Shown here in pieces: positions 25,908 to 64,000 of a DNA stretch of 64,000 nucleotides. The number at the start of each line of letters is the position of its first letter. The stretch's first letter is position 1. Where the stretch lies: assembly GCA_038206725.1 (NCBI GenBank), contig JBBRAO010000004.1, positions 39,580 to 103,579 of the forward strand, written 5' to 3'. The stretch is from Candidatus Kapaibacterium sp. Its GTDB lineage: Bacteria; Bacteroidota; Ignavibacteria; Kapaibacteriales; UBA2268. The notes under the pieces were generated by a model that worked only from the letters and a program-made list of their open reading frames with translations, was not told where the DNA came from and made no database searches. The position numbers and the translations under genes are program-made.

Positions 25908-26254
25908 ATTTCAATTTTAGTTTTTAAATTGATTTCTTCAAGAATCGAACTTACAGTTAAACATTGATTATAATTGTTACTAAATACTACAGCAGAACCT
26001 GATTTATGAACTTGAGTAGTTAATAGATAAGCCTTTTCCTCACTGCAATTGATAGCTATGATAAGTTGATCAATAACTTCATCGAAATCGTGTTCATTAT
26101 CATTGAATAATACTACTTTGGCATTGAATAGATTGTCATCTTCAGTATCTAATTGGATTAAAGGTTTTTCTATAATATTGGGTTTTGTTGTCATAACATC
26201 AATCAAATTGGAAAAAATAATTTTTGAATTAATACTTCTACTTTCTTTTAACAT
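25904..26254 (-). CDS. clpS: ATP-dependent Clp protease adaptor ClpS
   Basis: VVLFNDNEHDFDEVIDQLIIAI...EKAYLLTTQVHKSGSAVV core. True start possibly at an internal Met (about 100 aa). 3' end overlaps regulator stop by 4 nt. Confidence 0.65.
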   Translation of the reverse strand: MLKESRSINSKIIFSNLIDVMTTKPNIIEKPLIQLDTEDDNLFNAKVVLFNDNEHDFDEVIDQLIIAINCSEEKAYLLTTQVHKSGSAVVFSNNYNQCLTVSSILEEINLKTKIEI

Positions 26255-26277
26255 TAAAATAATAGATATGCAAAATT

Positions 26278-28269: not shown

Positions 28270-28285
28270 TTTATCGAATTAAAGT

Positions 28286-29803: not shown

Positions 29804-31262
29804 TTGGATTATAAATTTTATGCTATTTACGTTTTTACCGATTTTATCGCTTACAGCTTTTATTTTAATCATAATTATTATTGAAGCTTTTGTTAAGAAT
29901 AAAGATATTGTTTATCATTCAACTTTAGTTGCATTAATATGCGTTGGATTGACAGTAATATTCAATTTTAATAAGAACACTGATTTTCTACCGGATTTTA
30001 TCTCCAAAATGCTTGTATTTGGCAATCTACCATCATTTTTCGATTTGCTTTTTATTCTTTCCGGTTTATTAATAGTCTATTTAACAAAAGGGTATTTGGC
30101 GAGATTATATTCTCATTTATCTGAATTCTATCCCCTATTGCTTACCTCAATTTTCGGAATGATGCTAATTTCACATTCAAAAAATCTATTAGTTTTGTTT
30201 ATAGGTATCGAGATAATGTCTATATGTTTTTATGCACTGTCCGGTTTTATTCGTACCGATATCAAGGCAATAGAGGCATCCATAAAGTATTTTATCATTG
30301 GTTCATTTGCAACAGGATTCTTACTATTTGGCATATCTTTTATATACGGCGCAACAGGAAGTTTGGATTATCAAGCAATTTTTCAAGGGGTTATTTATAA
30401 CCAGTTGACTAATAATCTATATCTATTAATTGGTGTTAGTTTATTAATTATTGGATTAGGGTTTAAATTAGCGGTCTTCCCTTTTCATCAATGGGCTCCG
30501 GATGTTTACACAGGTGCTCCGACAATAGTATCCGGGTTTATGTCCACTGCCGGCAAAGCCGCCGGATTTATAGCATTAATCTCCTTTGTTTCAAGAATAT
30601 TAATGAACATAGAGTACGTTCATTCCTCGATTCAAGGTAATTTAATAAATCTTCAGTATATTATTGCCGGAATAGCCGCTTTAACAATGATAATCGGTAA
30701 TATCACAGCACTAGTACAAAAGAATTTTAAGCGTATGTTGGCTTATTCATCAATAGCACACGCCGGATATATGTTGATGGGTGTGGTTGCGGCAAATTAT
30801 GCAGGAATAAAAGGAATTGCATTTTATTTGTTGGCATACACATTTATGCAGATTGGTGCTTTTGTTGTTGCGGCTTCGCTTGAAAATGATTCGTCAACGG
30901 AAGTATCATTAATACATTTCAAAGGCTTGGCGAAAAAACAACCTTTGTTAGCCGCGTTAACATCTGTTATGATGTTTTCATTAGTAGGTTTACCACCTTT
31001 TGCAGGATTCTTTGGCAAATATTTATTATTTAAATCCGCCATCGAAGGTGGATTTATGTGGCTTACAATTGTAGCTATCATAGCATCTATGATTTCCATA
31101 TATTACTATATTAGGATAATAATAGAGATGTATTTTAGCAAAGAAGAGTCAGCTATAACTGTAGTAAATTTAAATTATAATAAAGTTGTATTGATTTTTT
31201 GTACTGCGGCCATTATAATCTTAGGAATTTTTCCAAATGTAATTCTTAAATTATTCAACTAA
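29793..31262 (+). CDS. nuoN: NADH-quinone oxidoreductase subunit N
   Basis: 489 aa. FHQWAPDVYTGAPTIVSGFMSTAGKAAGF. Annotated start overlaps nuoM by 11 nt; a downstream in-frame Met may be the real start. Confidence 0.7.
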   Translation: MINNWIINFMLFTFLPILSLTAFILIIIIIEAFVKNKDIVYHSTLVALICVGLTVIFNFNKNTDFLPDFISKMLVFGNLPSFFDLLFILSGLLIVYLTKGYLARLYSHLSEFYPLLLTSIFGMMLISHSKNLLVLFIGIEIMSICFYALSGFIRTDIKAIEASIKYFIIGSFATGFLLFGISFIYGATGSLDYQAIFQGVIYNQLTNNLYLLIGVSLLIIGLGFKLAVFPFHQWAPDVYTGAPTIVSGFMSTAGKAAGFIALISFVSRILMNIEYVHSSIQGNLINLQYIIAGIAALTMIIGNITALVQKNFKRMLAYSSIAHAGYMLMGVVAANYAGIKGIAFYLLAYTFMQIGAFVVAASLENDSSTEVSLIHFKGLAKKQPLLAALTSVMMFSLVGLPPFAGFFGKYLLFKSAIEGGFMWLTIVAIIASMISIYYYIRIIIEMYFSKEESAITVVNLNYNKVVLIFCTAAIIILGIFPNVILKLFN

Positions 31263-31356
31263 TTATAATTTTTATATTATTATAATTTTTCAAATTTCTT
31301 GTTGAGTACTCAAAATATTCGTAATTTTGCAGTTGTCAAATAATAAGAAAATACCA

Positions 31357-32064
31357 ATGATTTACTATAATAGAATTTTATTAAAGCTAAGCGGCGAAGC
31401 GTTAATGGGTAAACGCGAATTCGGAATAGATACTGAAGTTTTAAAATCATACGCAGAACAAATTGCGGATATACATAAATTAGGTGTCCAAATAGGGATC
31501 GTTGTCGGTGGTGGCAATATTTTCCGTGGCGTTCAAGCCGCCACACAAGGAATCAATCGAGTATCAGGAGATAATATGGGTATGTTAGCGACTGTTATCA
31601 ATAGTATAGCTTTTCAAAACGCATTAGAAGACCTTGGTATTGATACCCGTTTGCAATCCGCAGTAAAAATGGAACAAATAGCTGAACCCTTGATCAGACG
31701 TAGGGCTATAAGACACTTAGAAAAAAATAGAATAGTTCTATTTGCCGCAGGGACAGGCTCTCCATTTTTCTCGACAGATACCGCCGCTAGTTTGAGAGCC
31801 ATAGAAATTGACGCTCAAGTGATTATCAAAGGTACAAGAGTTGATGGTATTTATGATTCGGATCCTGAAAAAGATCCTGATGCTGTGAAATTCGATTCTC
31901 TGACATATCAAGAAGTTATTGCTAAAGACTTAAGGATAATGGATCAGACCGCAATTACACTTTGTAAAGAAAATAAATTACCGATAGTAGTGTTCAATAT
32001 CAACGTAAAAAATAGTTTAAAACGCCTTATTCACGGCGAAAAAATTGGAACAATAGTTAAATAA
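31357..32064 (+). CDS. pyrH: UMP kinase
   Basis: [12 protein letters not shown]...[12 protein letters not shown]. The ORF table start 31327 adds 10 residues; ATG 31357 gives the usual length. Confidence 0.85.
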
Positions 32065-32079
32065 ATAGATGAGATTATT

Positions 32080-32640
32080 ATGCCTGTAAAAGAAGTATTG
32101 CAATCAACTAAAACCACGATGACTAAATCACTTGATTATTTCAAGGTGCAATTATCGAAAGTAAGAACCGGTAGAGCATCTGGAAATTTGCTCGATGATA
32201 TATATGTAGATTACTACGGTGCTCCAACACCTTTGAGTCAAGTAGCTACAGTTTCTGTACCTGACGCACGCTCAATTATGATTCAGCCTTTTGATAGAAC
32301 TATGATTAGCGCGATTGACAGAGCTATTCAATTAGCCGGATTAGGGTTTAATCCACAGAATGATGGAACCGTAATAAGAATACCCGTTCCACCGCTGACC
32401 GAAGAAAGACGGAGAGATTTTGTTAAACAGTGTAAAAAATATGCTGAAGAATGTAAAATCGCCGTTAGAGGCGTTCGCCGAGATTCAATGGAAGTATTAA
32501 AGAAATTGGAAAAGGGCAAAGCCATAACAGAAGATGATAGAAAGCGTGGTGAAGATGAAATCCAAAAAGCGACCGATGAGTATATCAAAAAAACCGATGA
32601 TATTCTTAATGCTAAAGAAAAAGAATTAATGGATCATTAA
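32080..32640 (+). CDS. frr: ribosome recycling factor
   Basis: RTGRASGNLLDDIYVDYYGAPTPLSQVATVSVPDARSIMIQPFD. 186 aa. Confidence 0.9.
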   Translation: MPVKEVLQSTKTTMTKSLDYFKVQLSKVRTGRASGNLLDDIYVDYYGAPTPLSQVATVSVPDARSIMIQPFDRTMISAIDRAIQLAGLGFNPQNDGTVIRIPVPPLTEERRRDFVKQCKKYAEECKIAVRGVRRDSMEVLKKLEKGKAITEDDRKRGEDEIQKATDEYIKKTDDILNAKEKELMDH

Positions 32641-53102: not shown

Positions 53103-54305
53103 GTGAGAAATATCAACAAATTATTTACACTACTTGCATTCATTTTGTTTGCAACGAGTTCACTCTTTGCTTATGATAAAGAGATTACCTTAGGTATTGG
53201 CGGTGGTTTAAACCGACCAATAAACGAGACATTTAATGCAGAAAGAGCTAATGGTCCTGCTTTTGGGATTTTTGGTCTTTATGCGAACGGTTTAGGATAC
53301 GGTTTAACCCCCGAGATTAACGTATCCTATTTTATTGAACAATCCAAGACTCTTGGCTACCATACAGAGTATAAAACTAACACTTTGACGGCGGATTTAC
53401 GCTTGAGATATTATCCGATGAATAAGAAGCAATTTGCACCTTATTTATTTGCCGGTGTTGGTATGATAAATTGGAAAGTAAAGACTTTACCGGGTCAAAC
53501 CCCTATTCCATCAGATATGTCAATGGACCAACCCCCTGTGATTGATGGTACAACTGCATACTTCCCTTTGGGAATTGGGTTGACTCATTATTTCACAGAT
53601 ATCATTGGTGTTGATTTAAACCTTGGTTTAAATTTAACTCTAACAGATGATTTAAATCCAGTACACGATGGAATTAATGATGGACATTGGTTAGGTAAAT
53701 TGTCAGTATTGATTCGTTTAGCCGAGATTAAATCCGATGTTGACGGTGATGGTTTAATTGATGAAGAAGAAGCAAGAATTGGTACCGATCCAAACAATCC
53801 AGACACGGACGGTGATGGATTACTTGATGGAAAGGAAGTTTACACTTATAAAACGGATCCTAAAGATAAAGATACCGATGATGGTGGTATTAACGATGGA
53901 GCCGAAGTTCTTCACGGCACTGACCCATTGGATCCTGATGACGATATTCTTTGTATCAATTTAGGTGAAAAAATAATTCTGCGTGGTATCCAATTTGCAA
54001 CAGGAAAAACTGATCTTACTCCTACTTCTGAAAGAACATTAGGTTTTGCCTTAAAGGCTTTGCAAACTGGAGATAATATCGAGCTTCAAATTGTTGGTCA
54101 TACTGATGATATTGGAACTATAGAATTCAATTTGGTTTTATCACAAGATAGAGCTGATGTTGTTAAAAATTGGCTTGTAACTCGAGGTGTTGATCCAGCA
54201 CGTCTGACAACACGAGGCGCAGGATTTAACGAACCTTTGGTGTTAAATAGCGACGATGCTAATCGCGCTATCAACCGTAGAGTAGAATTTACAAGAACTA
54301 AATAA
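53103..54305 (+). CDS. OmpA-family outer membrane protein paralog 1 (beta-barrel + thrombospondin type-3 repeats + OmpA C-domain)
   Basis: GTG start with AAGAGGT SD. Signal peptide. Aromatic-rich barrel region. DGDGLIDEEEARIGTDPNNPDTDGDGLLDGKEVYTYKTDPKDKDTDDGGINDG Ca-binding repeats. OmpA-like C-terminus (LRGIQFATGKTDL...IVGHTDDIG...LSQDRADVV...RRVEF). Confidence 0.75.
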   Translation: MRNINKLFTLLAFILFATSSLFAYDKEITLGIGGGLNRPINETFNAERANGPAFGIFGLYANGLGYGLTPEINVSYFIEQSKTLGYHTEYKTNTLTADLRLRYYPMNKKQFAPYLFAGVGMINWKVKTLPGQTPIPSDMSMDQPPVIDGTTAYFPLGIGLTHYFTDIIGVDLNLGLNLTLTDDLNPVHDGINDGHWLGKLSVLIRLAEIKSDVDGDGLIDEEEARIGTDPNNPDTDGDGLLDGKEVYTYKTDPKDKDTDDGGINDGAEVLHGTDPLDPDDDILCINLGEKIILRGIQFATGKTDLTPTSERTLGFALKALQTGDNIELQIVGHTDDIGTIEFNLVLSQDRADVVKNWLVTRGVDPARLTTRGAGFNEPLVLNSDDANRAINRRVEFTRTK

Positions 54306-54315
54306 TTATTGCTTG

Positions 54316-54346
54316 AACGGTAGAATAGTATTCTGCCGTTTTTTAT
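54316..54346 (+). terminator. rho-independent terminator
   Basis: AACGGTAGAATA-g-TATTCTGCCGTT + TTTTT. Confidence 0.55.
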
Positions 54347-54432
54347 TTAAAAACTTTTACAATACTAATTTATTATTATTTATTAAAATAATTTTTTTTA
54401 GAATTTAATTATCATTTAAAAAGAGGTTTATT

Positions 54433-55539
54433 ATGAAAACTTTTCAAAAGTTATTCATTATTATTGCCATTATTGGCAGTACATCGGCTACAGCCTATTC
54501 TTATGAAAAAGACATCTGTATCGGTGTTGGAGCAGGCTTAAATTCATTCACTTATACTGATTATTTTGACCAAACTCATGATTATGCGGGTAGTCTCGGC
54601 AGTATTTTTGCAATTTACAGCAATGGTATTGCCAACGGATTCACTCCGGAAGTCTCATTTACTACACACTTCGACGAATCTTACAATGCAGGGGTTTTCT
54701 ACAATACTTATGCCATTGAAGGCAAAGTTCGTTATTATCCTTGGAGTCAAAAAAAATTAGCACCCTATGCCGTTGCCGGTTTAGGTTATTATATTTGGGA
54801 TACTCATTTTGCAAGTGCTAAAAAAGTATATATACCTTTAGGTATTGGTATCACTCACTTTTTTACACCCGTCTTCGGTGCTGATTTGAACTTTGCTTAT
54901 AATGTTGCCGATCCTAGTCTGTTGGTAAGTAAGTTATCGTTATTATTTAGAGTTGCTAGTTTCGCTAAAGACACCGACGGTGATGGACTCTCCGATGAAG
55001 ATGAAGTAAAATACGGTACTAATCCGAACAAACCTGATACCGATAATGACGGTTTGCTTGATGGAAAAGAAGTTCACAGATATAAAACTGACCCGAAAAA
55101 TAGAGACACTGATGATGGTGGTATTAGTGACGGAGTTGAGGTAAAATACGGTACTGATCCATTAGATCCTGATGACGATATCTTATGTATCGCTCTTGGT
55201 GAGAAAATTTTAGTCCGCAATATGTTGTTCGAGACCGGAAAAAGTACCCTAAGTACAAGTTCGGAAAGGACATTAGGATTTACTTTAAAAGCAATGCAAT
55301 CGAAAGATAATATTGAACTTCAAATTGTTGGTAATACCGATAATGTTGGAACTCAAGAGTTCAATCAACAATTATCTCAAGATAGAGCCGATGCCGTTAA
55401 AAAATGGTTAGTATCTCGAGGTATTGAATCAGGACGTCTTACAACACGTGGTGCAAGCTTTAATGAACCTATCGTTTCAAATACCAGTGATGAAAATCGC
55501 CAAAGAAATCGTAGAGTAGAAATCTATAGAACTAAATAG
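54433..55539 (+). CDS. OmpA-family outer membrane protein paralog 2
   Basis: Same architecture. AAGAGGT SD. DTDGDGLSDEDEVKYGTNPNKPDTDNDGLLDGKEVHRYKTDPKNRDTDDGGISDG. OmpA C-domain. Confidence 0.75.
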   Translation: MKTFQKLFIIIAIIGSTSATAYSYEKDICIGVGAGLNSFTYTDYFDQTHDYAGSLGSIFAIYSNGIANGFTPEVSFTTHFDESYNAGVFYNTYAIEGKVRYYPWSQKKLAPYAVAGLGYYIWDTHFASAKKVYIPLGIGITHFFTPVFGADLNFAYNVADPSLLVSKLSLLFRVASFAKDTDGDGLSDEDEVKYGTNPNKPDTDNDGLLDGKEVHRYKTDPKNRDTDDGGISDGVEVKYGTDPLDPDDDILCIALGEKILVRNMLFETGKSTLSTSSERTLGFTLKAMQSKDNIELQIVGNTDNVGTQEFNQQLSQDRADAVKKWLVSRGIESGRLTTRGASFNEPIVSNTSDENRQRNRRVEIYRTK

Positions 55540-55562
55540 ATTTGCACGCTAAGAATAAATTT

Positions 55563-55595
55563 AAGGTAGGAATGAAAATTCTTACCTTTTTTTTG
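55563..55595 (+). terminator. rho-independent terminator
   Basis: AAGGTAGGAAT-gaaa-ATTCTTACCTT + TTTTTT. Confidence 0.55.
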
Positions 55596-55716
55596 GTTAT
55601 ATTAAAAAATAATATTATTTTAGTTAAAGTTTTATTTGCTAAAATTTTTATGAAATTACATTAATATTTCAAAAAATTGTTTTTTAATATATTTTTAATT
55701 TTTTCTGAGGTTTTTT

Positions 55717-56808
55717 ATGAAGAGTATTCACAAATTATTAATCATTTTGGCCGTTTTCGGCTTTACAAGCACAATTGCTTATTCCTACGAGAAGGACGTA
55801 TGTATTGGCGTAGGACTGGGTTCTTATTCACAGCAATATAATTATATGGGATATGATTATGTATATTCAGGCGGTCTTGGCAGTATTTTTGGTATTTTCA
55901 CCAATGGGTTTGGAAAAGGTATTACTCCCGAAATTTGCTTTAATACTTATGTTGATGGTGACTATAGTTCATATAGTGCTGATTTCAAAGTTCGCTATTA
56001 TCCTTGGGCACAAAAGAAGTTAGCTCCTTATGGCTTTGTTGGTGCCGGCTATTACAGTTATGATCCTTATTACTCAACAGCAAAACCATTATTTATACCT
56101 ATTGGTATTGGTATTACCCATTTTTTCACACCTGTATTTGGCTTGGATTTTAATCTTGGGTATAATATTTCAAATGATAATGTGACTGTTGGGAAGTTAT
56201 CGGCTCTAATTAGATTAGCAAGTTGGGGTGGTGACCCTGATTCTGATGGTGACGGTCTTTCCGATGCGGACGAAGCAAAATATGGCACTGACCGAAATAA
56301 TCCCGATACAGATAATGATGGATTGTTGGACGGTAAGGAAGTCCATAAATACAAAACGAATCCCAAAGACAAAGATACTGATAAAGGAGGCATTTCGGAC
56401 GGTGTAGAAGTAAATAGAGGATCCGATCCGTTAGACAAAGATGATGATATCCTAAGTATCAATATTGGAGACAAGCTTATATTACGAGGCATTGAATTCG
56501 ATACGGGAAAAGCGGATATTACAGACCGGTCGGAACGTATTTTGGGATTCGCATTAAAAGCTTTGAAATCCGCTCGTGATATGCAGATTGAAATTTGCGG
56601 TCATACCGATGATGTTGGGTCTCTGCAAACTAATTTGAAATTATCATTGGATAGAGCAAATTCAGTTAAGAAATGGTTTGTCAGTCGCGGAATTGACGGA
56701 AGTAGGTTAAGCACTCGCGGTGCCGGTCCAAATGAGACGATGGTTCCGAACACTAGCGATGAAAATCGCCAGCGCAATCGTAGAGTTGAATTTTACAGGA
56801 CTAAATAA
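55717..56808 (+). CDS. OmpA-family outer membrane protein paralog 3
   Basis: Same architecture. GAGGT SD. DSDGDGLSDADEAKYGTDRNNPDTDNDGLLDGKEVHKYKTNPKDKDTDKGGISDG. OmpA C-domain. Confidence 0.75.
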   Translation: MKSIHKLLIILAVFGFTSTIAYSYEKDVCIGVGLGSYSQQYNYMGYDYVYSGGLGSIFGIFTNGFGKGITPEICFNTYVDGDYSSYSADFKVRYYPWAQKKLAPYGFVGAGYYSYDPYYSTAKPLFIPIGIGITHFFTPVFGLDFNLGYNISNDNVTVGKLSALIRLASWGGDPDSDGDGLSDADEAKYGTDRNNPDTDNDGLLDGKEVHKYKTNPKDKDTDKGGISDGVEVNRGSDPLDKDDDILSINIGDKLILRGIEFDTGKADITDRSERILGFALKALKSARDMQIEICGHTDDVGSLQTNLKLSLDRANSVKKWFVSRGIDGSRLSTRGAGPNETMVPNTSDENRQRNRRVEFYRTK

Positions 56809-56837
56809 AGTAAAGATGAAAAAATCTTTTAATAATT

Positions 56838-56867
56838 GGGTAGAATTATAATTCTACCCTTTTTTAT
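56838..56867 (+). terminator. rho-independent terminator
   Basis: GGGTAGAATTATAATTCTACCC + TTTTTT. Confidence 0.55.
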
Positions 56868-56970
56868 TATAAAAAAAAATATTAACTTGCATTCAATTAT
56901 AAATTAATTTTTCCGAACTACGCTAATAACATCTTAATATAGTTTTATTATTTTCCCATAAGAGGTTTTT

Positions 56971-58047
56971 ATGAAAGTCATATACAAATTATTAATTATT
57001 ATTGCCATATTGGGCTTTACAACAACAATATCACATTCATACGAAAAAGATATTAGTTTGGGTGCAGGACTTGGTAGATTTACGGTTCAGAAGGATGCTG
57101 ATTATAATAAATTCAGTGGTGGCTTAATAAATTTTTATGCTATCGGTACAAATATTTTTGGAAAGGGATATACACCTGAAATTGGTGTTTCTACTCTTTT
57201 TAACACAAACGGTGATTATTTGAATTCAATCGATGCTAAATTACGTTACTATCCTTGGACTCACAAAAAGTTTGCGCTTTATGGATTTATTGGTTTAGGA
57301 TATTATACTGATACTACTGATATTGTCACACCTATTTATTTACCGGTAGGTGTTGGTTTAACCCACTTCTTCACAGAAAAAGTCGGTGCAGATTTAAGTG
57401 TAGGTTACAATGTATCATCACCAATCATTTTGGTGGCTAAATTATCGGTATTATTCAGAGTACTAAGTTTTACGAAAGACTCTGACAAAGATGGTTTATC
57501 TGATGCTGATGAGTCTAAATATGGTACTGACCCAAACAATCCAGATTCCGACGGCGATGGATTGTTAGACGGTAAAGAAGTCAATAAATACAAAACTGAT
57601 CCAAAGAATAAGGATACCGACGGCGGGGGAATTAATGATGGTACCGAAGTGAATAGAAATTCCGATCCGTTAGATATGGATGATGATATTTTAAGTATCA
57701 ACATTGGTGATAAATTAATATTACGCGGTATTGAATTTGATTTGGGCAAAACTGACATTACTCCACGTTCTGAGAGAATTTTGGGATTCGCATATAAAGC
57801 CTTAGAAGCCGGTGAAAATATGGAAATCGAAATTTGCGGACATACAGATGACATTGGAAAGGTTTCAGATAATGATAAACTGTCGTTAGAGAGAGCTGAT
57901 GCTGTGAAGAAATGGTTTGTCAGTCGCGGAATTGACGGAAGTAGGTTAAGCACTCGCGGTGCCGGTCCAAATGAGCCTATGGTAACAAATACCAGCGACG
58001 AAAATCGTCAACGCAACCGTAGAGTAGAATTCTATAGGACAAGGTAA
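56971..58047 (+). CDS. OmpA-family outer membrane protein paralog 4
   Basis: Same architecture. AAGAGGT SD. DSDKDGLSDADESKYGTDPNNPDSDGDGLLDGKEVNKYKTDPKNKDTDGGGINDG. OmpA C-domain. Confidence 0.75.
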   Translation: MKVIYKLLIIIAILGFTTTISHSYEKDISLGAGLGRFTVQKDADYNKFSGGLINFYAIGTNIFGKGYTPEIGVSTLFNTNGDYLNSIDAKLRYYPWTHKKFALYGFIGLGYYTDTTDIVTPIYLPVGVGLTHFFTEKVGADLSVGYNVSSPIILVAKLSVLFRVLSFTKDSDKDGLSDADESKYGTDPNNPDSDGDGLLDGKEVNKYKTDPKNKDTDGGGINDGTEVNRNSDPLDMDDDILSINIGDKLILRGIEFDLGKTDITPRSERILGFAYKALEAGENMEIEICGHTDDIGKVSDNDKLSLERADAVKKWFVSRGIDGSRLSTRGAGPNEPMVTNTSDENRQRNRRVEFYRTR

Positions 58048-58402
58048 TTAACTTCTTTATAAATTAGTAAACTTAAGGGCTGTCTCACAACTCAGAATTA
58101 TCAAATTATTAGCCGATCAGAGATGATTGTGCTACCGATATATCAATGACTTGGTGGGATAAACATCCTTGCTTGTCATCCTAAATTTAAGTTTTGATAC
58201 AGCCTCTTGAGTTTCTTGTTGAATTTTCAACTATTTTTTCAATTTCAGAAGCTTCTAAACATTTTACAGCAAGTATTCAAATTTGTGGAAAATCTTAATC
58301 AAAAAAAGCGTAATTTTGTACATATTATTTTTGAAACTTTAGTTTCTTAATGAACTAATGTTTTAAAAATAATGCAATTTTTTAATATTCTTTTGAATAA
58401 AT

Positions 58403-60340
58403 ATGTTTTTTTTAATATTAATATTAGGAATAATATCCGGATCGTCGTTTTTAGCTATAACCGCCCTTGGCGGGAATAATATTGAATTTATCATAAACGG
58501 CGGCTATATTTTGGGAAATATCCCATTAAGGATAGACTCCCTATCAGGATGGATGATTCTGATAATTAATATAACTATGCTTACCGGAGTACTGTACGGT
58601 AGAAAATACATAGAGCATTATAAAACCATCCGCGCAAATATAAAACTACACTTAAGTCTTATTGTCATTTTTCATATATCAATGGTCCTCGTATGCGTAG
58701 TCCAGAATTTCTTGGCATTTCTTGTTGTATGGGAAATTATGGCAGTAAGTTCCTTTCTCCTAGTGATTTTTGAATATTGGAAAAAAGAAACTATTAAAGC
58801 TGGAATGAACTACCTTATTCAATCGCATATCGGTATATTATTCCTCACAATCGCATTTATTTGGGTAATTTCGATTACCGGCTCTTATGATTTTAAATCT
58901 ATCGAGACATTTTCAACACAAGTTTCTCCCGCATTTGGAATTACACTTTTTGTTCTTCTTATGATTGGCTTTGGTTTCAAAGCGGGATTAGTTCCTTTCC
59001 ATACTTGGCTTCCTTATGCTCATCCAGCGGCACCATCACATATTTCCGGAATGATGTCAGGTGTGATAATCAAAATGGGAATATTCGGAATACTTCGATC
59101 ACTTTTACTTATAAAAGGCAATTATCTGATTATCGGCGAGATTATTCTAACCGTTTCGGTTGTTTCAGGTTTATATGGAGTAATCCTCGCGATTGTCCAA
59201 CATAACTTAAAAAAATTACTTGCTTACCATAGTATTGAAAATATCGGAATTATCGGTATTGGAATTGGAATTGGTACAATCGGGCTTGGTTTAAATAACA
59301 CTTTCCTCGCTATTGCCGGCTTTGCCGGAGGTTTATTACATATTCTAAACCACTCTTTGTTCAAATCATTATTATTTTACGGAGCCGGAAGTATATATCA
59401 AGAAACCGGTACACTGAATATAGAAAAACTTGGCGGACTTATAAAAAGTATGCCCCAAACCGCCGCAATGTTTCTTATCGCTTCCCTTTCAATCTGTGGT
59501 TTGCCCCCATTTAACGGATTCGTTTCTGAATTTCTTATTTATTCAGGTTTATTTGCCGGATTAAAAACCGGCAGTTTCGCATTATCTCTTTTCCTTATCT
59601 TAGTAATAATTGGATTGGTATTAATTGGCGGTTTAGCTCTTTTATGTTTCACCAAGGCATTTGGAATAATTTTCCTTGGAAGCGCAAGAAGCGAGTATCC
59701 ACGTAAGCCGAAGGAAGTTCAGACAGCTATGCTCATTCCTCAATATATAATAACGTCTATAATTTTAGCAATCGGATTGTTTCCACAGTTGTTTATGATG
59801 TTGGTTTTAAACCCGGTTTCCCTCTTTGTTCCTGCTATTAAAACGAGTGGAGCCTCAATATACTTCTCACAAATTTCGATTTTATCAAATATTGGAATTG
59901 CCGGAGCAATAATCATAGCGTTGAGTGCCGGGATATATTTTATTAAATTGAAAGTCCAAAAAAACAAAGTTATTGAAACTTCTCCAACTTGGGGATGCGG
60001 TTATACTGCGCCAACTTCAAGGATGCAATATACAGCCAGCTCTTTTGTAAAAACATATTCCAGCTTAGTTAAACCAATCCTTATAACTAAGAAGAAGGAA
60101 GCAAAAACCACTAATATTTTTCTTGTTGAAACAGAACACTCTTCCGGTACTTACGATAAAATTGAACATTACTTGATAGATAGAAATATTAAAGCTTTCA
60201 AGAAGTTCCTTTATAAATTCGATTTCCTTCAGAATGGGAGAATTCCATCCTATGTGCTTTATGGATTGCTGTTTATTCTTCTGATTATACTTGTTTCTTA
60301 TTCTGAAGATTTAACCAAACTAATTTTTAATTTTTTTTAA
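58403..60340 (+). CDS. antiporter-like proton-pumping subunit, HyfB/NuoL/MrpA family
   Basis: 645 aa. FHTWLPYAHPAAPSHISGMMSGVIIKMGIFGILR. About 16 TM. Confidence 0.65.
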   Translation: MFFLILILGIISGSSFLAITALGGNNIEFIINGGYILGNIPLRIDSLSGWMILIINITMLTGVLYGRKYIEHYKTIRANIKLHLSLIVIFHISMVLVCVVQNFLAFLVVWEIMAVSSFLLVIFEYWKKETIKAGMNYLIQSHIGILFLTIAFIWVISITGSYDFKSIETFSTQVSPAFGITLFVLLMIGFGFKAGLVPFHTWLPYAHPAAPSHISGMMSGVIIKMGIFGILRSLLLIKGNYLIIGEIILTVSVVSGLYGVILAIVQHNLKKLLAYHSIENIGIIGIGIGIGTIGLGLNNTFLAIAGFAGGLLHILNHSLFKSLLFYGAGSIYQETGTLNIEKLGGLIKSMPQTAAMFLIASLSICGLPPFNGFVSEFLIYSGLFAGLKTGSFALSLFLILVIIGLVLIGGLALLCFTKAFGIIFLGSARSEYPRKPKEVQTAMLIPQYIITSIILAIGLFPQLFMMLVLNPVSLFVPAIKTSGASIYFSQISILSNIGIAGAIIIALSAGIYFIKLKVQKNKVIETSPTWGCGYTAPTSRMQYTASSFVKTYSSLVKPILITKKKEAKTTNIFLVETEHSSGTYDKIEHYLIDRNIKAFKKFLYKFDFLQNGRIPSYVLYGLLFILLIILVSYSEDLTKLIFNFF

Positions 60341-60349
60341 GCTATTAAA

Positions 60350-61270
60350 ATGCTAAGTTTATTGCTAATTATAATATCAAGTTTATTTTTCGTCGGGATT
60401 CTTGACAAGACCAAGAGCAAGTTGACCGGACGTAAAGGCGCCCCTATTCTTCAACCCTTGAAAGACATTATCCGTTTGTTCAAAAAGGGTTCCGTTTATA
60501 GCGTTACTACAAGCTTTATTTTTAAAATAGCCCCAACAATTTATCTAGCAACAACAATTACGGCGGCAATGCTTATTCCATTTTGCAATATGAAAGGTAT
60601 TCTTTCTTTTAATGGTGACTTCATCTTATTTGCTTATGTGCTTGGTCTGGGTAAGTTTTTTAATATTATCTCTGCCCTTGATACAGGAAGTAGTTTCGAA
60701 GGAATGGGCGCAAGCAGAGAGGCTTTAATGTCTATGCTCGCCGAGCCGTCCTTTTTTATTTTTATTGGTTCGATTAGTTTATTAAGTGGTAAAACTTCAT
60801 TTCTGCAGATGTACAGTTCAATTAGCCACGCGGCATTAGTCTCTCCCATTGCTTTTTATACATTAATTGTTTTAGGAACAGCAGTATTCTTTATGTTGGG
60901 ATTGATAGAAAACAGTAGAATGCCAATTGACGATCCAAAAACACATCTGGAATTGACGATGATTCACGAAGTAATGATACTGGATAACAGTGGCTTTGAC
61001 CTTGGATTAATCCATTACTCAGGATTTTTGAAATTTGGAATTTACGGTGCTTTAATCGCAAATCTGTTTTTAGCTCCGGTTTTCCCACTCTACTTGAACA
61101 TTTTGATATTTTTTGGGATTCAGTTTCTATATGCTGTATCAACCGGCTTTGTTGAATCTTTTATCGCACGTTTCAGGATTAACCAAAATCCACAGTTTAT
61201 ATTTTCATTATCTTCCATAGCTCTACTTATATTTATTGGAGTTATGATTTTATTGGGTATGTTTAATTAA
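60350..61270 (+). CDS. HyfC/HycD-like (NuoH family) membrane subunit
   Basis: GILDKTKSKLTGRKGAPILQPLKDIIRLFKK and ALDTGSSFEGMGASREALMSMLAEP parallel the HyfC/HycD conserved blocks (GxSR..RAR.H.RRGP...Q.YRD; LDTGSPFAG.GASRE) as I recall them. Confidence 0.6.
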   Translation: MLSLLLIIISSLFFVGILDKTKSKLTGRKGAPILQPLKDIIRLFKKGSVYSVTTSFIFKIAPTIYLATTITAAMLIPFCNMKGILSFNGDFILFAYVLGLGKFFNIISALDTGSSFEGMGASREALMSMLAEPSFFIFIGSISLLSGKTSFLQMYSSISHAALVSPIAFYTLIVLGTAVFFMLGLIENSRMPIDDPKTHLELTMIHEVMILDNSGFDLGLIHYSGFLKFGIYGALIANLFLAPVFPLYLNILIFFGIQFLYAVSTGFVESFIARFRINQNPQFIFSLSSIALLIFIGVMILLGMFN

Positions 61271-61282
61271 TTATTAGTTAAA

Positions 61283-61912
61283 ATGATAAATGTATTAATG
61301 TTGGTCTTTATAATGTCTCTATTTGTTTGCTCTACAGCAATCAGATTGAGTACTTTTATAAAAGTTCTTGTTCTGCAGGGGCTATTGCTATTCGGTTTCT
61401 TTATCATACGTTTGAATGAAATCAATATAACGAACCTTATTTTATTATTGCTTGAGACAGTTATATTTAAATCAATCATAATCCCTTCTTTCCTTAAATA
61501 CATTATAAAAAAGAATAAACTAACAAGAGAAGCTGAGCCGTATATATCTAATTTTTCATCAATATTCATTTTTACTTTTGCTAATCTAATACTGTTTTTC
61601 CTTGCTAATACATTGGAGGGCGGAGTATTTCAAAATATATATTTTGTCGGCGCTGTTTCGACCATTTTCAGCGGGTTTTTCCTGATTATTTTACGGCATA
61701 AAATCATTACAAATGTAATTGGATTCATAATTTTGGAAAATGGAGTGGTTATTCTCTCACTCGCTGTGGGTAAAGAAATGCCTATGTTAGTAAACTTAGG
61801 AATTCTATTGGATATTTTTGTAACGGTTCTTGTTCTTGGAATATTTGCCAATAAGCTCGGCGACGTATTCAAAGAAGGTGAAGTGGATCAATTAAATCAG
61901 TTGAAGGATTAG
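61283..61912 (+). CDS. HyfE-like small membrane subunit (NuoK-like C-terminal half)
   Basis: 209 aa. C-terminal VIGFIILENGVVILSLAVGKEMPMLVNLGILLDIFVTVLVLGIFANKL resembles the HyfE ...MENGSHLV... block. Confidence 0.5.
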   Translation: MINVLMLVFIMSLFVCSTAIRLSTFIKVLVLQGLLLFGFFIIRLNEINITNLILLLLETVIFKSIIIPSFLKYIIKKNKLTREAEPYISNFSSIFIFTFANLILFFLANTLEGGVFQNIYFVGAVSTIFSGFFLIILRHKIITNVIGFIILENGVVILSLAVGKEMPMLVNLGILLDIFVTVLVLGIFANKLGDVFKEGEVDQLNQLKD

Positions 61913-61916
61913 TTTT

Positions 61917-63350
61917 ATGGCAATAATTATATATTTAGCAGCCGTGGCAATATTTATTTCTGGAATTCTAATATTTAGAAAGAAAACTACAAATTATATT
62001 TTTTCTATCCTTTTTATTGCTTTGCAGTGGACTTTTAATGTTTACGAATATAATCATCGTAATATCGAGCAGCTTCAATATTTTAATCCGGATTCAATTG
62101 GATTGATCTTATTGTTTGTTTTGAGCATTGTTAGCACAGCATCATTGTATTACAGTTTTATATTTTTCAAGCATACCAACGATACACCTAGGTCTAAAAG
62201 TATTTATTTCGCGGCTTTAATTACCCTAATAACTTCATTAAGTTGTGCGTATATCGCTAATCATATAGCCATTATGTGGATTTTCGTGGAATTGACGACG
62301 CTTAGCTCGGCAGTTCTTGTTTACCATAACAGATCCTCCAAAAGCCTTGAAGCCGCGTGGAAATATCTGTTTATAAGTTCAATAAGTGTAGCTTTGATTT
62401 TTATCGGGATTTTATTTCTTGGCTTAGCTGTTCAGGAAGCTAAATTGGATGGAATATTCTTTTCCGTACTTTTGAAAAACGCAACACTTCTTGATCCATT
62501 CTGGTTGAAAGCCGCTTTTCTTCTTATATTCACAGGTTTTACCGTAAAAGCCGGATTAGTGCCAATGTACACTGTTGGTATTGACGCAAAAGATAAAGCC
62601 CCATCTCCCGCCTCGGCTATTTTTTCGAGTGCGATTATGAATATGGGCTTTCTTGGAATCTTTAGATTATTTGAAGTGATTTCTAAAACAGGTATTCATA
62701 AATGGGCTTGTATGGTCTTAATTATCAGCGCATCATTATCAGTTTTTATATCAGCGGCGTATATGGTTAGAGTTAAAAACTTTAAAAGGATGTTTGCTTA
62801 TTCGAGTATTGAACATATGGGAATAATGATGTTAGGTATGGCAGTCGGTGGAATTGGATATTATGGGGCTATCCTTCATCTCATTCTACATTCATTTGCA
62901 AAGTCAAGTTTATTCTATCAAACTGGAGCCATATTCAGAGTTATGAAAAGCAAATTAATTAAAGATTCCGGTAATTATTTCGGATATAATACGTTTGGAG
63001 CGATCACTTTAATATTGGGATTCTTTATTATTACAGCAATGCCTCCTTCCGGAATGTTTGTAAGTGAATTTATGATTTTTCGTTCGATGTTCGAAGCTAA
63101 ATATTTGTGGTTACTGATTATAATAGTAATTCTACTTTGTTTTATTATTTGGGCTATGGGTAAAAACCTCTTTAAGTTGCTTTTTAGTAAATTGGAAAAT
63201 GCGCAAATCATCGAAAAAGATATGGAAAAAATTAGCTTTGTTGAATCAATCCCACAGTTGATACTTTTTTTAACAGTAATTTACATAGGGTTTTATCCCC
63301 CACCTTTTGTACAAAATCTGATTCAACAGGCTTTGGTTAATTTGAAATAA
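61917..63350 (+). CDS. antiporter-like subunit, HyfF/NuoN/MrpD family
   Basis: 477 aa. WLKAAFLLIFTGFTVKAGLVPMYTVGIDAKDKAPSPASAIF. Confidence 0.6.
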   Translation: MAIIIYLAAVAIFISGILIFRKKTTNYIFSILFIALQWTFNVYEYNHRNIEQLQYFNPDSIGLILLFVLSIVSTASLYYSFIFFKHTNDTPRSKSIYFAALITLITSLSCAYIANHIAIMWIFVELTTLSSAVLVYHNRSSKSLEAAWKYLFISSISVALIFIGILFLGLAVQEAKLDGIFFSVLLKNATLLDPFWLKAAFLLIFTGFTVKAGLVPMYTVGIDAKDKAPSPASAIFSSAIMNMGFLGIFRLFEVISKTGIHKWACMVLIISASLSVFISAAYMVRVKNFKRMFAYSSIEHMGIMMLGMAVGGIGYYGAILHLILHSFAKSSLFYQTGAIFRVMKSKLIKDSGNYFGYNTFGAITLILGFFIITAMPPSGMFVSEFMIFRSMFEAKYLWLLIIIVILLCFIIWAMGKNLFKLLFSKLENAQIIEKDMEKISFVESIPQLILFLTVIYIGFYPPPFVQNLIQQALVNLK

Positions 63351-63373
63351 CAGGTTTAAATAGATTAAGTAAG

Positions 63374-64000
63374 ATGAATAAATATATAACAATTAATAAC
63401 AATCAAGCAATTGACTTCGACACAATACCATTATTGAAATACAAAGATTTTTTAAAAGTCAATACTACATTTCTCAATGACGCCCTAAATCATTGTGTTA
63501 ATTATTACGGTTTTCATCATTGTGGAAAATTGAGATTAATAAATTGTATTGCAAACGACGAGACTGAATTAATCTATCTTACTTCAACCGAAATTAATCC
63601 TAACTTAGATGTTGCTTACAATTCTTTGACTGCTCATAACACAGCATTCCATCTATTTGAAAGAGAAATCAGTGAGAATTTCGGAGTCCGTTATATTGAC
63701 CATCCTTGGCTCAAGCCTATGCGATATCCAATTGATAATGTGAACAATCCAAAAATGGACGACTATCCTTTTTATCATATAAAGAGTGAGGAAATTCATG
63801 AGGTTGGAGTTGGACCAATTCACGCGGGGATCATCGAACCGGGTCATTTTAGGTTTATCTGCAAAGGTGAACAGATTCTGCATCTTGAAATCCAACTTGG
63901 CTATCAGCATCGGGGTGTGGAAAATCTCTTTATAACCAAGAACAACCTTCTTCAAAGGACTATTTTAGCGGAATCCATAGCGGGTGATACTACTGTTGGT
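63374..64000 (+). CDS. NuoC-NuoD-fused, group-4 [NiFe]-hydrogenase-large-subunit-like protein (N-terminal 209 aa; continues beyond window); NiFe L1 cysteines apparently absent
   Basis: N-terminal 30-kDa(NuoC)-like part then VGPIHAGIIEPGHFRF, the EPGHFR signature of group-4 hydrogenase / HycE-type large subunits. The segment ...QHRGVENLFITKNNLLQRTILAESIAGDTTVG, where HycE-type proteins carry RxCGxC, has Ala and Thr instead (alignment from memory). Confidence 0.55.
   Translation, partial: MNKYITINNNQAIDFDTIPLLKYKDFLKVNTTFLNDALNHCVNYYGFHHCGKLRLINCIANDETELIYLTSTEINPNLDVAYNSLTAHNTAFHLFEREISENFGVRYIDHPWLKPMRYPIDNVNNPKMDDYPFYHIKSEEIHEVGVGPIHAGIIEPGHFRFICKGEQILHLEIQLGYQHRGVENLFITKNNLLQRTILAESIAGDTTVG

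What the first reader, a model, noticed from the sequence alone, without database searches (positions are those of the whole stretch)
58403..64000. Hydrogenase-4-like (hyfB/C/E/F + large subunit) module whose large subunit appears to lack the NiFe-ligand cysteines: an Ehr-type complex of unknown function
Five consecutive same-strand genes encode a NuoL/HyfB-like antiporter subunit, a NuoH/HyfC-like subunit, a HyfE-like subunit, a NuoN/HyfF-like subunit and a NuoC-NuoD-fused large subunit. The large subunit carries the group-4 hydrogenase EPGHFR signature. At the position where HycE/HyfG-type proteins have the RxCGxC nickel-binding motif, the sequence reads ILAESIAGDTTVG (Cys to Ala and Cys to Thr by my alignment). 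Cysteine-less relatives of energy-converting hydrogenases have been noted bioinformatically but their substrate and role are not established. This copy is separate from the canonical nuoLMN block 30 kb upstream, so the organism carries two distinct antiporter-module sets. The window ends inside the large subunit, so the remaining subunits (small NuoB-like, ferredoxin-like) are unseen.
Basis: partly seen in the sequence, partly recalled or inferred. Interest (0 to 1): 0.7.

Follow-up and report, generated by a model that had tools for sequence, protein, structure and literature searches.

The report
Hydrogenase-like membrane complex without electron wire
This six-gene operon encodes a membrane complex built like an energy-converting hydrogenase or respiratory complex I, but it has lost the nickel-iron site and two of its three iron-sulfur clusters, so it probably moves ions without doing redox chemistry; its real function has never been tested.

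Summary
Window 58403-64000 holds five tightly packed same-strand genes: HyfB-like, NuoH/HyfC-like, HyfE-like, HyfF-like and the start of a NuoC-NuoD-fused large subunit.

I recovered the missing downstream DNA of the same organism (L083, 1607 bp overlap, 0 mismatches). The complete large subunit has none of the four [NiFe] cysteines (A, T, S, G) and neither of the complex-I quinone ligands. Only one more core gene follows. It is a half-ferredoxin fused to a NuoB-like small subunit.

The 'Ehr-type' reading is supported. At 32-50% identity, 112 of 116 representatives lack the four cysteines and nearly all share the xGD...NLSYxGxDL signature.

New here: this copy belongs to a sub-lineage (Bacteroidota, Ignavibacteria and relatives) in which the small subunit has also lost all four proximal-cluster cysteines (D, T, D, S) and one of the two ferredoxin clusters. 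Four more distant Ehr operons keep all three clusters. One invariant, isolated [4Fe-4S] motif remains. The charged residues of the membrane subunits are invariant, and no partner gene is conserved nearby.

My inferred mechanism is a redox-independent, possibly redox-gated, ion translocator. No experiment supports it, and the literature calls Ehr function unknown as of 2025.

The parts
58048..58402 (+). 355-bp AT-rich intergenic region upstream of the operon (presumed promoter region)
   Evidence: It lies between the last OmpA/TSP3 paralog (ends 58047) and the first operon gene. The consensus scan found no convincing sigma-70 site on the + strand.
58403..60340 (+). HyfB/HycC-like antiporter-type subunit (645 aa)
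   Evidence: PF00361, E 1.5e-54. Best solved-structure matches are HycC 7z0s_C (214 bits) and MbhH (186 bits). TM5 Glu (E111), TM7 Lys (K193), TM8 Lys (K224) and TM12 Lys (K321) are invariant in 59 homologs. It has a HycC-type C-terminal 'TWGCGY...QYTA' region.
60350..61270 (+). NuoH/HycD/HyfC-like subunit (306 aa)
   Evidence: PF00146, E 1.1e-31. Matches HycD 7z0s_D (83 bits) and MbhM (68 bits). 24 invariant charged residues in 68 homologs, including E124, E132, E187, E201, E207 and E269.
61283..61912 (+). HyfE-like membrane subunit (209 aa); C-terminal half is NuoK/MrpC-like
   Evidence: NCBIfam 'hydrogenase 4 membrane subunit', 63 bits, below cutoff. Weak match of residues 119-164 to MbsG/MrpC-like 6u8y_G, pairing 'ILENGV' with 'IMETGV'. 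Homologs carry weak PF00420 (NuoK) hits. E58 and E152 are invariant in 72 homologs.
61917..63350 (+). HyfF-like antiporter-type subunit (477 aa)
   Evidence: PF00361, E 8.7e-42. Best matches are MbhH and MbsH. TM5 Glu (E125), TM7 Lys (K211) and TM12 Lys (K329) are invariant. The TM8 Lys is replaced by a conserved Asn ('MN'), and there is a family-specific 'GIDAKDKAP' loop.
63374..64000 (+). N-terminal 209 aa of the NuoC-NuoD-fused large subunit (full length 500 aa; continues beyond the window to window-equivalent 64876)
   Evidence: PF00329 at residues 38-133. The full protein is P0148, encoded on L083, which overlaps window 62394-64000 with 0 mismatches.
63806..63856 (+). GVGPIHAGIIEPGHFRF: the beta1-beta2 loop and group-4 'EPGHFR' signature, retained
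   Evidence: Coordinates. Nearly invariant in 73 homologs. Aligns to HycE 'IGPLHVTSDEPGHFRL'.
63971..64000 (+). ESIAGDTTVG: degenerate L1 nickel-binding motif (RxCGxCxxxH becomes ESIAGDTTVGH)
   Evidence: HMMER alignment to HycE and MbhL: C241->A, C244->T. The Asp between the two former Cys is near-invariant across the wider cysteine-less clade.

Best explanation
SHOWN. The window holds the first five genes of a six-gene operon: HyfB-like, HyfC/NuoH-like, HyfE-like, HyfF-like, a NuoCD-like large subunit, and a half-ferredoxin fused to a NuoB-like small subunit. It is an Ehr-type relative of group-4 [NiFe] hydrogenases. The large subunit has none of the four Ni-Fe cysteines. The small subunit has none of the four cysteines of the proximal [4Fe-4S] cluster (D, T, D, S). 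The ferredoxin-like domain keeps ligands for only one of its two clusters. The charged residues of the antiporter-like, NuoH-like and NuoK-like subunits are invariant.

INFERRED. The chain of three clusters that carries electrons from a donor to the catalytic pocket in MBH, FHL and complex I is broken. The complex therefore most likely no longer couples redox chemistry to ion pumping. I propose that it works as a redox-independent ion translocator, in effect an Mrp-like cation/proton antiporter or ion-homeostasis device. In this picture the fossil hydrogenase module acts as the cap, or as an ion-loading and gating site. The conserved Asp, Ser/Thr, Glu, Arg and His of the former Ni-Fe pocket sit at the NuoH interface. 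The single surviving, invariant [4Fe-4S] cluster would be structural or a redox/oxygen sensor that gates transport.

Confidence in the identity (FeS-depleted Ehr) is about 0.9. Confidence in the mechanism is about 0.35-0.4. The figure given is for the mechanism.
For: - Same-organism downstream DNA: L083 overlaps the window by 1607 bp with 0 mismatches.
- Ni-Fe ligands: C241->A, C244->T, C531->S, C534->G. The protein ends at the position of the HycE processing site.
- Small subunit versus MbhJ/HycG: all four cluster cysteines are replaced. In 68 family members these positions read D 68/68, C 59/68, D 68/68, N 67/68.
- Ferredoxin-like domain: only C48, C65, C68 and C71 are kept, invariant in 68/68. 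The CxxCxxC aligns to the second motif of NdhI/NuoI.
- Four more distant Ehr operons (L085, L086, L090, L092) keep all four proximal-cluster cysteines and both ferredoxin motifs. The loss is therefore derived and specific to this lineage.
- Membrane machinery is intact. HyfB keeps E111, K193, K224 and K321. HyfF keeps E125, K211 and K329. HyfC has 24 invariant charged residues. HyfE keeps E58 and E152.
- There is no conserved redox-partner gene. In 83 neighbourhoods the largest flanking family occurs in 7 loci, and the recurring neighbours are housekeeping genes or a Crp/Fnr regulator.
- Strong purifying selection: 55-70% identity between Ignavibacteria and Bacteroidota, intact in about 70 loci, and at least 8000 90%-identity clusters.
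- From established knowledge, physiological electron tunnelling needs about 14 Å or less between centres. Removing the N2-type cluster leaves a gap of more than 20 Å in complex-I geometry.
Against: - No experiment of any kind exists.
- The soluble module, including the loops around the former active site and the remaining cluster, is more conserved than a passive cap would need to be.
- Known Mrp antiporters work without such a module.
- The invariant Asp/Asp/Asn at the former cluster-ligand positions could bind some other metal or cofactor that sequence analysis cannot reveal.
- In this organism a NapH-like membrane polyferredoxin lies 114 bp downstream. It could be a lineage-specific redox partner, although it is absent from all other loci.
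- HyfF lacks the central TM8 lysine, so one of the two antiporter-like channels may be altered.
- My assignment of the surviving cluster as the distal (N6a-type) one rests on the ferredoxin ligand rule and on memory of the Nqo9 structure. It was not verified here.
Confidence: 0.38

Rival explanations
1. It is still a redox-driven ion pump. Electrons enter at the remaining [4Fe-4S] cluster from ferredoxin or a docking partner encoded elsewhere. They reach an unknown acceptor (quinone, sulfur compound or other) either through a cofactor bound at the Asp/Asp/Asn site or by reducing a substrate close to that cluster.
For: The four cysteines of the remaining cluster are invariant in 68/68. The pocket's second-sphere residues are conserved: Glu of EPGH, Arg of WRGE, His of L1. 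FeS-retaining Ehr relatives have the same pocket signature and a full wire, so the ancestral Ehr was presumably redox-active. A NapH-like polyferredoxin follows the operon in this organism. The literature proposes partner oxidoreductases for Ehr, such as FDH-Ehr (PMC6349859, PMC7894505).
Against: All four proximal-cluster ligands and one ferredoxin cluster are gone. No partner gene is conserved in 83 neighbourhoods, and the NapH-like gene is unique to this locus. The complex-I quinone ligands Tyr87 and His38 are absent. No cysteine-based replacement site is conserved in the large subunit across the clade.
Confidence: 0.25
2. The membrane arm uses the ion gradient to drive a non-redox reaction or a conformational task at the peripheral module. 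Examples would be vectorial CO2 hydration as in cyanobacterial NDH-1 Cup or in DAB complexes, or another gradient-powered chemistry.
For: There is precedent that complex-I-type antiporter subunits power non-redox chemistry (Cup and DAB, from established knowledge). The former Ni-Fe and cluster sites are filled with invariant polar residues: Asp and Ser/Thr in the large subunit, and Asp, Asp and Asn in the small subunit.
Against: There is no carbonic-anhydrase-like or DabA-like domain and no His/Cys zinc motif. There is no link to carbon-fixation genes in the neighbourhoods. This is pure analogy.
Confidence: 0.1
3. It is a genuine Hyf/FHL-2-type [NiFe] hydrogenase and the missing cysteines are an alignment artefact.
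For: The gene order and the best database hits are to hydrogenase-4 and FHL subunits. Some sources name relatives 'Ni,Fe-hydrogenase III large subunit'.
Against: Ungapped HMMER alignments to HycE and MbhL place A/T at L1 and S/G at L2. The same substitutions recur in 112 of 116 representatives, while true CGxC...CxxC sequences align cleanly in the same columns. The proximal cluster is lost. There is no HyfA/HycB, no FdhF and no hyp genes in the locus.
Confidence: 0.01
4. It is an ordinary second copy of respiratory complex I, or a decaying remnant.
For: Pfam domains are shared with Nuo subunits. Databases often name the large subunit 'NADH-quinone oxidoreductase subunit C'.
Against: It scores higher against HycE and MbhL than against NuoD. 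There is no N2 cluster, no Tyr87/His38 and no nuoA/I/J/E/F/G. It is not decaying: the reading frames are intact and there are many invariant residues across about 70 loci from two phyla.
Confidence: 0.02

Closest known systems
Ehr (energy-converting / Ech hydrogenase-related) complexes, e.g. Geobacter sulfurreducens GSU0739-0745, Nitrospira and candidate-phyla Ehr (Coppi 2005; Marreiros 2013, as cited in PMC7894505, PMC4758237, PMC12342949)
   Same: The large subunit is a group-4 homolog without the CxxC Ni-Fe ligands. It carries the shared signature x-G-D-[ST]...H and NLSYxGxDL at the C-terminus. The six-gene order HyfB-HyfC-HyfE-HyfF-large-small is identical in distant Ehr operons. Function is unknown.
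   Different: The four more distant Ehr operons I examined keep all four proximal-cluster cysteines and both ferredoxin motifs, i.e. three clusters. This copy and its lineage keep only one.
E. coli hydrogenase-4 / FHL-2 (HyfA-J) and FHL-1 (HycB-G; structure 7z0s)
   Same: These are the best solved-structure matches for four subunits: HycE 131 bits, HycC 214 bits and HycD 83 bits for the window's proteins, and HycG 72 bits for the close homolog L007's small subunit, where MbhJ scores higher (89 bits). The large subunit is NuoC-NuoD-fused. HyfE- and HyfF-type extra membrane subunits are present.
   Different: There is no Ni-Fe site and no proximal cluster. HyfA/HycB, HyfD, FdhF, HycI/HyfK protease and hyp genes are absent from the locus. 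HyfH and HyfI are fused and degenerate. The large subunit ends at the protease cleavage position.
Pyrococcus furiosus MBH and MBS/Mbx (6cfw, 6u8y)
   Same: It has a complex-I-like architecture with Mrp-type antiporter subunits. MbhL, MbhJ, MbhH and MbhM are second-best or best structural matches. MBS is the precedent for a large subunit that lost Ni-Fe ligands and changed substrate.
   Different: MBH and MBS keep all three [4Fe-4S] clusters and are ferredoxin-driven. They also have a full Mrp module (MbhA-G), which is absent here.
Mrp (Mnh/Sha) multisubunit cation/proton antiporter (7qru, 6z16, 7d3u)
   Same: There are two MrpA/MrpD-type subunits with the conserved Glu/Lys relay and a MrpC/NuoK-like element. 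This is the proposed working analogy, transport without redox chemistry.
   Different: No MrpB, E, F or G homologs are present. It has a NuoH-like subunit and a large soluble module that Mrp lacks.
Respiratory complex I / NDH-1
   Same: Homologous NuoB, C, D, H, K-like and L/M/N-like subunits are present. The Ni-Fe site is lost, as in NuoD.
   Different: There is no N2 cluster, no quinone-ligand Tyr/His, and no NuoA, I (full), J or E-G. The organism's own nuoLMN lies elsewhere in the window at 26278-31262.

Membership tests
Ehr (hydrogenase-related complex) | Large subunit homologous to group-4 [NiFe] hydrogenase large subunits | tested here: met
   HycE E 5.7e-37 and MbhL E 1.8e-30, both above any NuoD. 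PF00329 plus PF00346.
Ehr (hydrogenase-related complex) | Both CxxC Ni-Fe binding motifs (L1, L2) absent | tested here: met
   The four positions are A, T, S, G in the window's full-length protein P0148. The same pattern occurs in 112 of 116 related representatives.
Ehr (hydrogenase-related complex) | Co-encoded with NuoB-like, NuoH-like and Mrp/Nuo antiporter-like subunits | tested here: met
   The same order is found in 80 loci and in distant Ehr operons.
Ehr (hydrogenase-related complex) | Electron-transfer chain retained (proximal [4Fe-4S] cluster plus two ferredoxin-type clusters), as seen in the distant Ehr operons sampled here | tested here: not met
   Proximal-cluster ligands are D/T/D/S and the first ferredoxin motif is lost. 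L085, L086, L090 and L092 keep all of them. I do not know whether the published Ehr definition requires this feature.
Group 4 [NiFe] hydrogenase (Hyf/Hyc/Mbh/Ech) | L1 RxCGxCxxxH and L2 DPCxxCxx(H/R) cysteines | tested here: not met
   ESIAGDTTVGH and FNLSYCGFDL-end.
Group 4 [NiFe] hydrogenase (Hyf/Hyc/Mbh/Ech) | Small subunit with four Cys binding the proximal [4Fe-4S] cluster | tested here: not met
   Alignment to MbhJ and HycG: C->D, C->T, C->D, C->S.
Group 4 [NiFe] hydrogenase (Hyf/Hyc/Mbh/Ech) | hyp maturation genes in the genome | not tested
   None was noticed near the operon or among the window ORFs I scanned, but I did not scan all window ORFs. The whole genome is not available.
Respiratory complex I | NuoD quinone ligands (T. 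thermophilus Nqo4 His38, Tyr87) and the Asp86 region | tested here: not met
   Alignment to 2fug_4: the equivalents are Ile, Gly and Ala. The His38 loop alignment is ungapped but uncertain.
Respiratory complex I | Cluster N2 in NuoB, and adjacent nuoA/I/J/K (with or without E/F/G) | tested here: not met
Mrp antiporter | MrpA/MrpD-type subunits with the conserved TM5 Glu and TM7/TM8/TM12 Lys | tested here: met
   HyfB has all four. HyfF has three of four, with TM8 Lys->Asn.
Mrp antiporter | MrpB, MrpE, MrpF and MrpG subunits | tested here: not met
   No such genes are in the operon, which has only six genes. The MrpC/NuoK-like match of HyfE is weak, E 0.07.

The most novel reading that the evidence does not exclude
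A large, widespread lineage of complex-I/hydrogenase-type machines in Bacteroidota, Ignavibacteria and relatives keeps the complete peripheral arm and the coupling interface but has discarded the electron wire. It operates as a redox-independent, perhaps redox-gated, ion translocator. This would be a natural experiment that separates the ion-translocation and coupling machinery of the complex I superfamily from its redox chemistry. The invariant Asp/Asp/Asn and Asp/Ser residues would form new ion- or metal-binding sites where the cluster and the Ni-Fe centre used to be.
Probability: 0.3. Interest if true: 0.8.

Novelty: new variant of a known kind. Interest (0 to 1): 0.55.

Why it matters
Ehr complexes are a recognised but functionally blank branch between membrane-bound hydrogenases and complex I. 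Reviews and genome papers up to 2025 still say their role is unknown.

This copy shows that a very large sub-lineage has also lost two of the three FeS clusters. At least 8000 90%-identity clusters were scored, and the carriers include cultured aerobes such as Niastella vici and Arcticibacter eurypsychrophilus. Every charged residue of the membrane arm is kept.

If the complex is active, one of two things must be true. Either complex-I-type architecture can work without an electron wire, or an unrecognised cofactor fills the gap. Either answer would bear on how the active-site region is coupled to ion translocation in the whole superfamily.

The cultured carriers make the question testable. 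On the practical side, these genes are routinely mis-annotated as 'NADH-quinone oxidoreductase subunit C' or 'Ni,Fe-hydrogenase III large subunit'. That can inflate hydrogen-metabolism or complex-I calls in metagenomic surveys.

Tried and rejected
- Exact-protein look-ups of window genes. HyfF and HyfE were not on record. HyfC gave only short contigs. The route that worked was a homolog search with a related full-length large subunit, which returned P0148. This is the window's own protein, and it led to L083.
- The first homolog search with the 209-aa fragment returned only partial proteins.
- Conserved neighbourhood. All-against-all clustering of flanking ORFs in 83 loci found no partner. The largest family occurs in 7 loci: GFO/IDH/MocA oxidoreductase, Crp/Fnr regulator, EPSP-synthase-like, DUF4290, DoxX, GcvH.
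- The NapH-like and 428-aa genes downstream in this organism have no counterpart in any other locus, so I do not count them as part of the module.
- A replacement cysteine-based metal site in the large subunit. The family-specific cysteines (RFIC, EICHC, and others) are not conserved across the wider depleted clade.
- Monophyly of the FeS-depleted lineage. The NJ tree groups all seven depleted sequences and excludes the four FeS-retaining ones, but only 13 of 100 bootstraps support this. A first attempt timed out. The shared derived states (Cys1->Asp, Cys3->Asp/Glu, loss of ferredoxin motif 1) are the better argument.
- A literature check of which NuoI cluster (N6a or N6b) uses which cysteines found nothing usable.
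- Literature on the Bacteroidota or Ignavibacteria version. The I. album and M. roseus genome papers do not mention it and keyword searches found nothing.
- Structure prediction was not run. The tool returns no coordinates, so distances between the remaining cluster site and the pocket could not have been measured.
- The promoter and terminator scans were uninformative.

Full report
**1. The observation**

- 58403-60340 (645 aa)
- 60350-61270 (306 aa)
- 61283-61912 (209 aa)
- 61917-63350 (477 aa)
- an ORF from 63374 that runs off the window (209 aa)

They lie on one strand with gaps of 4-23 nt. Pfam and NCBIfam identify them as follows:
- a HyfB-type antiporter-like subunit (PF00361, 1.5e-54)
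- a NuoH/HyfC-type subunit (PF00146, 1.1e-31)
- a HyfE-type subunit (NCBIfam only, 63 bits)
- a HyfF-type antiporter-like subunit (PF00361, 8.7e-42)
- the NuoC domain of a NuoC-NuoD fusion (PF00329)

No protein reaches an NCBIfam equivalog cutoff, so they are relatives of the E. coli proteins, not orthologs. EPGHFR is at 63836-63853 and ESIAGDTTVG fills the last 30 bases.

A separate nuoL-M-N block lies at 26278-31262. It sits between a sigma-54 response regulator and pyrH/frr and is only 23-29% identical to HyfB/HyfF.

**2. Recovering the unseen part**

The source genome is not among the species representatives. The best relatives there are 67-69% identical, from Ignavibacteriaceae, Melioribacteraceae and Bacteroidota MAGs.

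A homolog search with a related full-length large subunit returned P0148 (500 aa). It is 100% identical to the window's 209-residue fragment. Its encoding contig L083 overlaps window 62394-64000 over 1607 bp with no mismatch, so it is the same organism's downstream DNA. It carries:
- the rest of the large subunit
- 9 nt later, a 250-aa small subunit
- then a NapH-like membrane polyferredoxin, a 428-aa protein with a signal peptide, and a convergent 769-aa gene

The last three have no counterpart downstream of the operon in any other locus. I treat them as neighbours, not parts.

**3. The large subunit**

Ungapped HMMER alignments of P0148 to E. coli HycE (7z0s_E, 131 bits) and P. furiosus MbhL (109 bits) give these pairings (the same for the homolog L007):
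- L1: 'drvCgiCgfaH' pairs with 'esiAgdTtvgH'
- L2: 'ldpCysCtdr' pairs with 'fnlSycGfdl'

All four Ni-Fe cysteines are therefore replaced (A, T, S, G). The protein stops where HycE is cut by its maturation protease.

Against T. thermophilus Nqo4 (78 bits), the quinone-site residues D86, Y87 and H38 align to A, G and I. It is neither a hydrogenase nor a NuoD. Second-sphere residues of the old site survive and are near-invariant in 73 homologs. These are the Glu of EPGH, the Arg of WRGE and the His of L1.

**4. Placement**

A full HMMER scan of 1.8 billion representatives found 500 proteins at E ≤ 1e-30. I aligned 116 long representatives at 32-50% identity. Of these, 112 lack the four cysteines. 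Nearly all share the signature x-[A/S/C]-G-D-[S/T]...H and (F)NLSYxGxDL at the C-terminus. Only four carry CGxC...CxxC in the same columns.

This is the cysteine-less group-4 relative that the literature calls Ehr:
- HydDB deliberately excludes it (PMC5037454).
- It has been proposed as a link between hydrogenases and complex I (PMC4758237).
- Papers up to 2025 say its function 'remains unknown' (PMC12342949, PMC10284858, PMC10432482, PMC6349859, PMC7894505, bioRxiv 10.1101/765248).

**5.

I aligned the small subunit to MbhJ and HycG. The four cysteines that hold the proximal (N2-type) [4Fe-4S] cluster are D, T, D and S in this organism. In 68 Bacteroidota and Ignavibacteria homologs they are D (68/68), C (59/68), D (68/68) and N (67/68).

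The N-terminal 110 residues are a degenerate NuoI/HycF-type ferredoxin. The first CxxCxxC is gone and the last Cys of the second motif is Phe. C48 (the 'CP' of motif 1) plus C65, C68 and C71 are invariant in 68/68. Those three align to the second motif of NdhI/NuoI. By the standard 2x[4Fe-4S] ferredoxin ligand rule this leaves exactly one cluster. From memory of the Nqo9 structure it is the N6a-type cluster, distal from N2. I could not verify that assignment.

I then pulled the operons of nine representatives across the Ehr range. All have the same six-gene order. Together with the window's own operon (L083) and the Bacteroidota loci L007 and L057, that gives 11 small subunits to compare.

| Group | Large-subunit identity to the window | State of the small subunit |
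|---|---|---|
| Window, L007, L057, L088, L093, L089, L091 | 43% or more | Depleted: Cys1->Asp; Cys3->Asp/Glu; Cys4->Asn/Ser/Ala/Trp; ferredoxin motif 1 lost |
| L090, L092, L086, L085 | 42% or less | All four proximal-cluster cysteines and both ferredoxin motifs kept |

An NJ tree groups all the depleted sequences to the exclusion of the retaining ones, but with weak support (13 of 100 bootstraps). The shared derived residues are the stronger evidence for one loss event.

**6. The membrane arm is intact**

- HyfB keeps the canonical TM5 Glu and the TM7, TM8 and TM12 Lys (E111, K193, K224, K321), invariant in 59 homologs. It has a HycC-type C-terminal region.
- HyfF keeps E125, K211 and K329. 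It has a conserved Asn in place of the TM8 Lys and a family-specific GIDAKDKAP loop.
- HyfC has 24 invariant charged residues.
- HyfE has two invariant membrane Glu and a weak NuoK/MrpC-like half.

**7. Context and spread**

The operon occurs as six genes, or seven with a second HyfB-like gene in many Bacteroidota. More than 570 species-representative loci encode a relative of the large subunit, and at least 8000 90%-identity clusters were scored. The gene order was checked in 80 of those loci.

Carriers include aerobes (Chitinophagaceae, Cyclobacteriaceae, Saprospiraceae, Flavobacteriaceae) and anaerobes (Bacteroidales, Prolixibacteraceae, Lentimicrobiaceae). Cultured carriers include Niastella vici and Arcticibacter eurypsychrophilus.

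No flanking gene family is conserved. A divergent Crp/Fnr-type regulator recurs in 8 loci. Database names are 'NADH-quinone oxidoreductase subunit C', 'Ni,Fe-hydrogenase III large subunit' or 'hypothetical protein'. The I. album and M. roseus genome papers do not mention the complex. Keyword searches found nothing on the Bacteroidota version.

**8. Mechanism**

*Shown:*
- the subunit inventory
- the loss of Ni-Fe, proximal-cluster and one ferredoxin-cluster ligands
- the retention of one cluster motif and of the membrane relay residues
- the absence of a conserved partner gene
- strong purifying selection

*Inferred:* with the proximal cluster gone, the remaining cluster is too far from the former active-site pocket for physiological electron transfer. 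Redox-driven pumping is therefore unlikely.

My preferred model, at about 0.38, is a redox-independent cation/proton translocator of Mrp type. Its fossil hydrogenase module would serve as a cap or ion-gating site, and its lone cluster would be structural or a redox sensor.

Rivals:
- A still-redox enzyme using an unseen cofactor or partner (about 0.25). The invariance of the remaining cluster and the conservation of the pocket argue for it.
- A gradient-driven non-redox catalyst (about 0.1).
- A true hydrogenase, ordinary complex I, or a relic. Each is refuted or nearly so.

**9. Novelty and verdict**

I found no literature on this family. I could not read Marreiros 2013, so prior description of the cluster loss cannot be excluded.

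I rate it a new variant of a known kind, with interest 0.55. The anatomy is solid and the carriers are cultured organisms. The mechanism is inference only.

Noticed in passing
window 19153-22467 (+): Adjacent genes look like an archaeal-type GatE (GatB_N with a large insertion plus GatB_Yqey, 640 aa) and GatD (GatD_N plus asparaginase domains, 463 aa). The pair sits in what appears to be an Ignavibacteria/Bacteroidota-type bacterium. GatDE is normally regarded as archaeal.
   Followed up: no
window 53103-58047 (+): Four tandem paralogs (358-400 aa) each have a signal peptide, a beta-barrel-like N-terminal part, bacterial thrombospondin-type-3 (TSP3) repeats and a C-terminal OmpA domain. They lie directly upstream of the operon. 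Similar proteins flank the operon in only 3 loci.
   Followed up: partly
window 24510-32640: nuoL-M-N (26278-31262) stands alone. It is preceded by a sigma-54-dependent response regulator and followed by pyrH and frr, with no nuoA-K nearby. This fits the split nuo clusters reported for Ignavibacterium album (PMC3362086).
   Followed up: partly
L083 3359-5748 (window-equivalent about 65752-68141): 114 bp after the small subunit comes a NapH/NosR-type membrane polyferredoxin. It is 367 aa with a signal peptide, an acidic linker, CxxxCP-type membrane motifs and a C-terminal 2x[4Fe-4S] domain (PF12801). Its stop overlaps the start of a 428-aa secreted protein of unknown family. Neither occurs next to the operon in any other locus.
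   Followed up: partly
L085 2251-2760 and L086 1547-2206 (minus strand): Both FeS-retaining Ehr operons first examined have a rubrerythrin-family gene divergently upstream. Two cases only, so this may be coincidence.
   Followed up: no
L090 3272-4936: One FeS-retaining Ehr operon has two extra genes inserted between HyfC and HyfE. They are an aldo/keto reductase with a ferredoxin-like domain (380 aa) and a TM1506-family protein. They are a possible electron-input module for that Ehr.
   Followed up: no
L003/L004 11497-12262: In an Ignavibacteriaceae MAG the large and small subunit genes are separated by a 765-bp insert with short ORFs. The same 20-kb region appears on two contigs of that assembly.
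   Followed up: no
L008-L081, many loci (about 2900-5000): Most Bacteroidota versions carry a second HyfB-like gene (about 665 aa) in tandem upstream, giving a seven-gene operon. The window and the Ignavibacteria-like loci have one.
   Followed up: partly
L089 9396-10462 and L093 9335-10413: Two depleted-type operons from unrelated samples are followed by a pair of chromate-transporter (PF02417) half-genes and preceded by an RsmE-like methyltransferase. This is local synteny within one sub-lineage.
   Followed up: no
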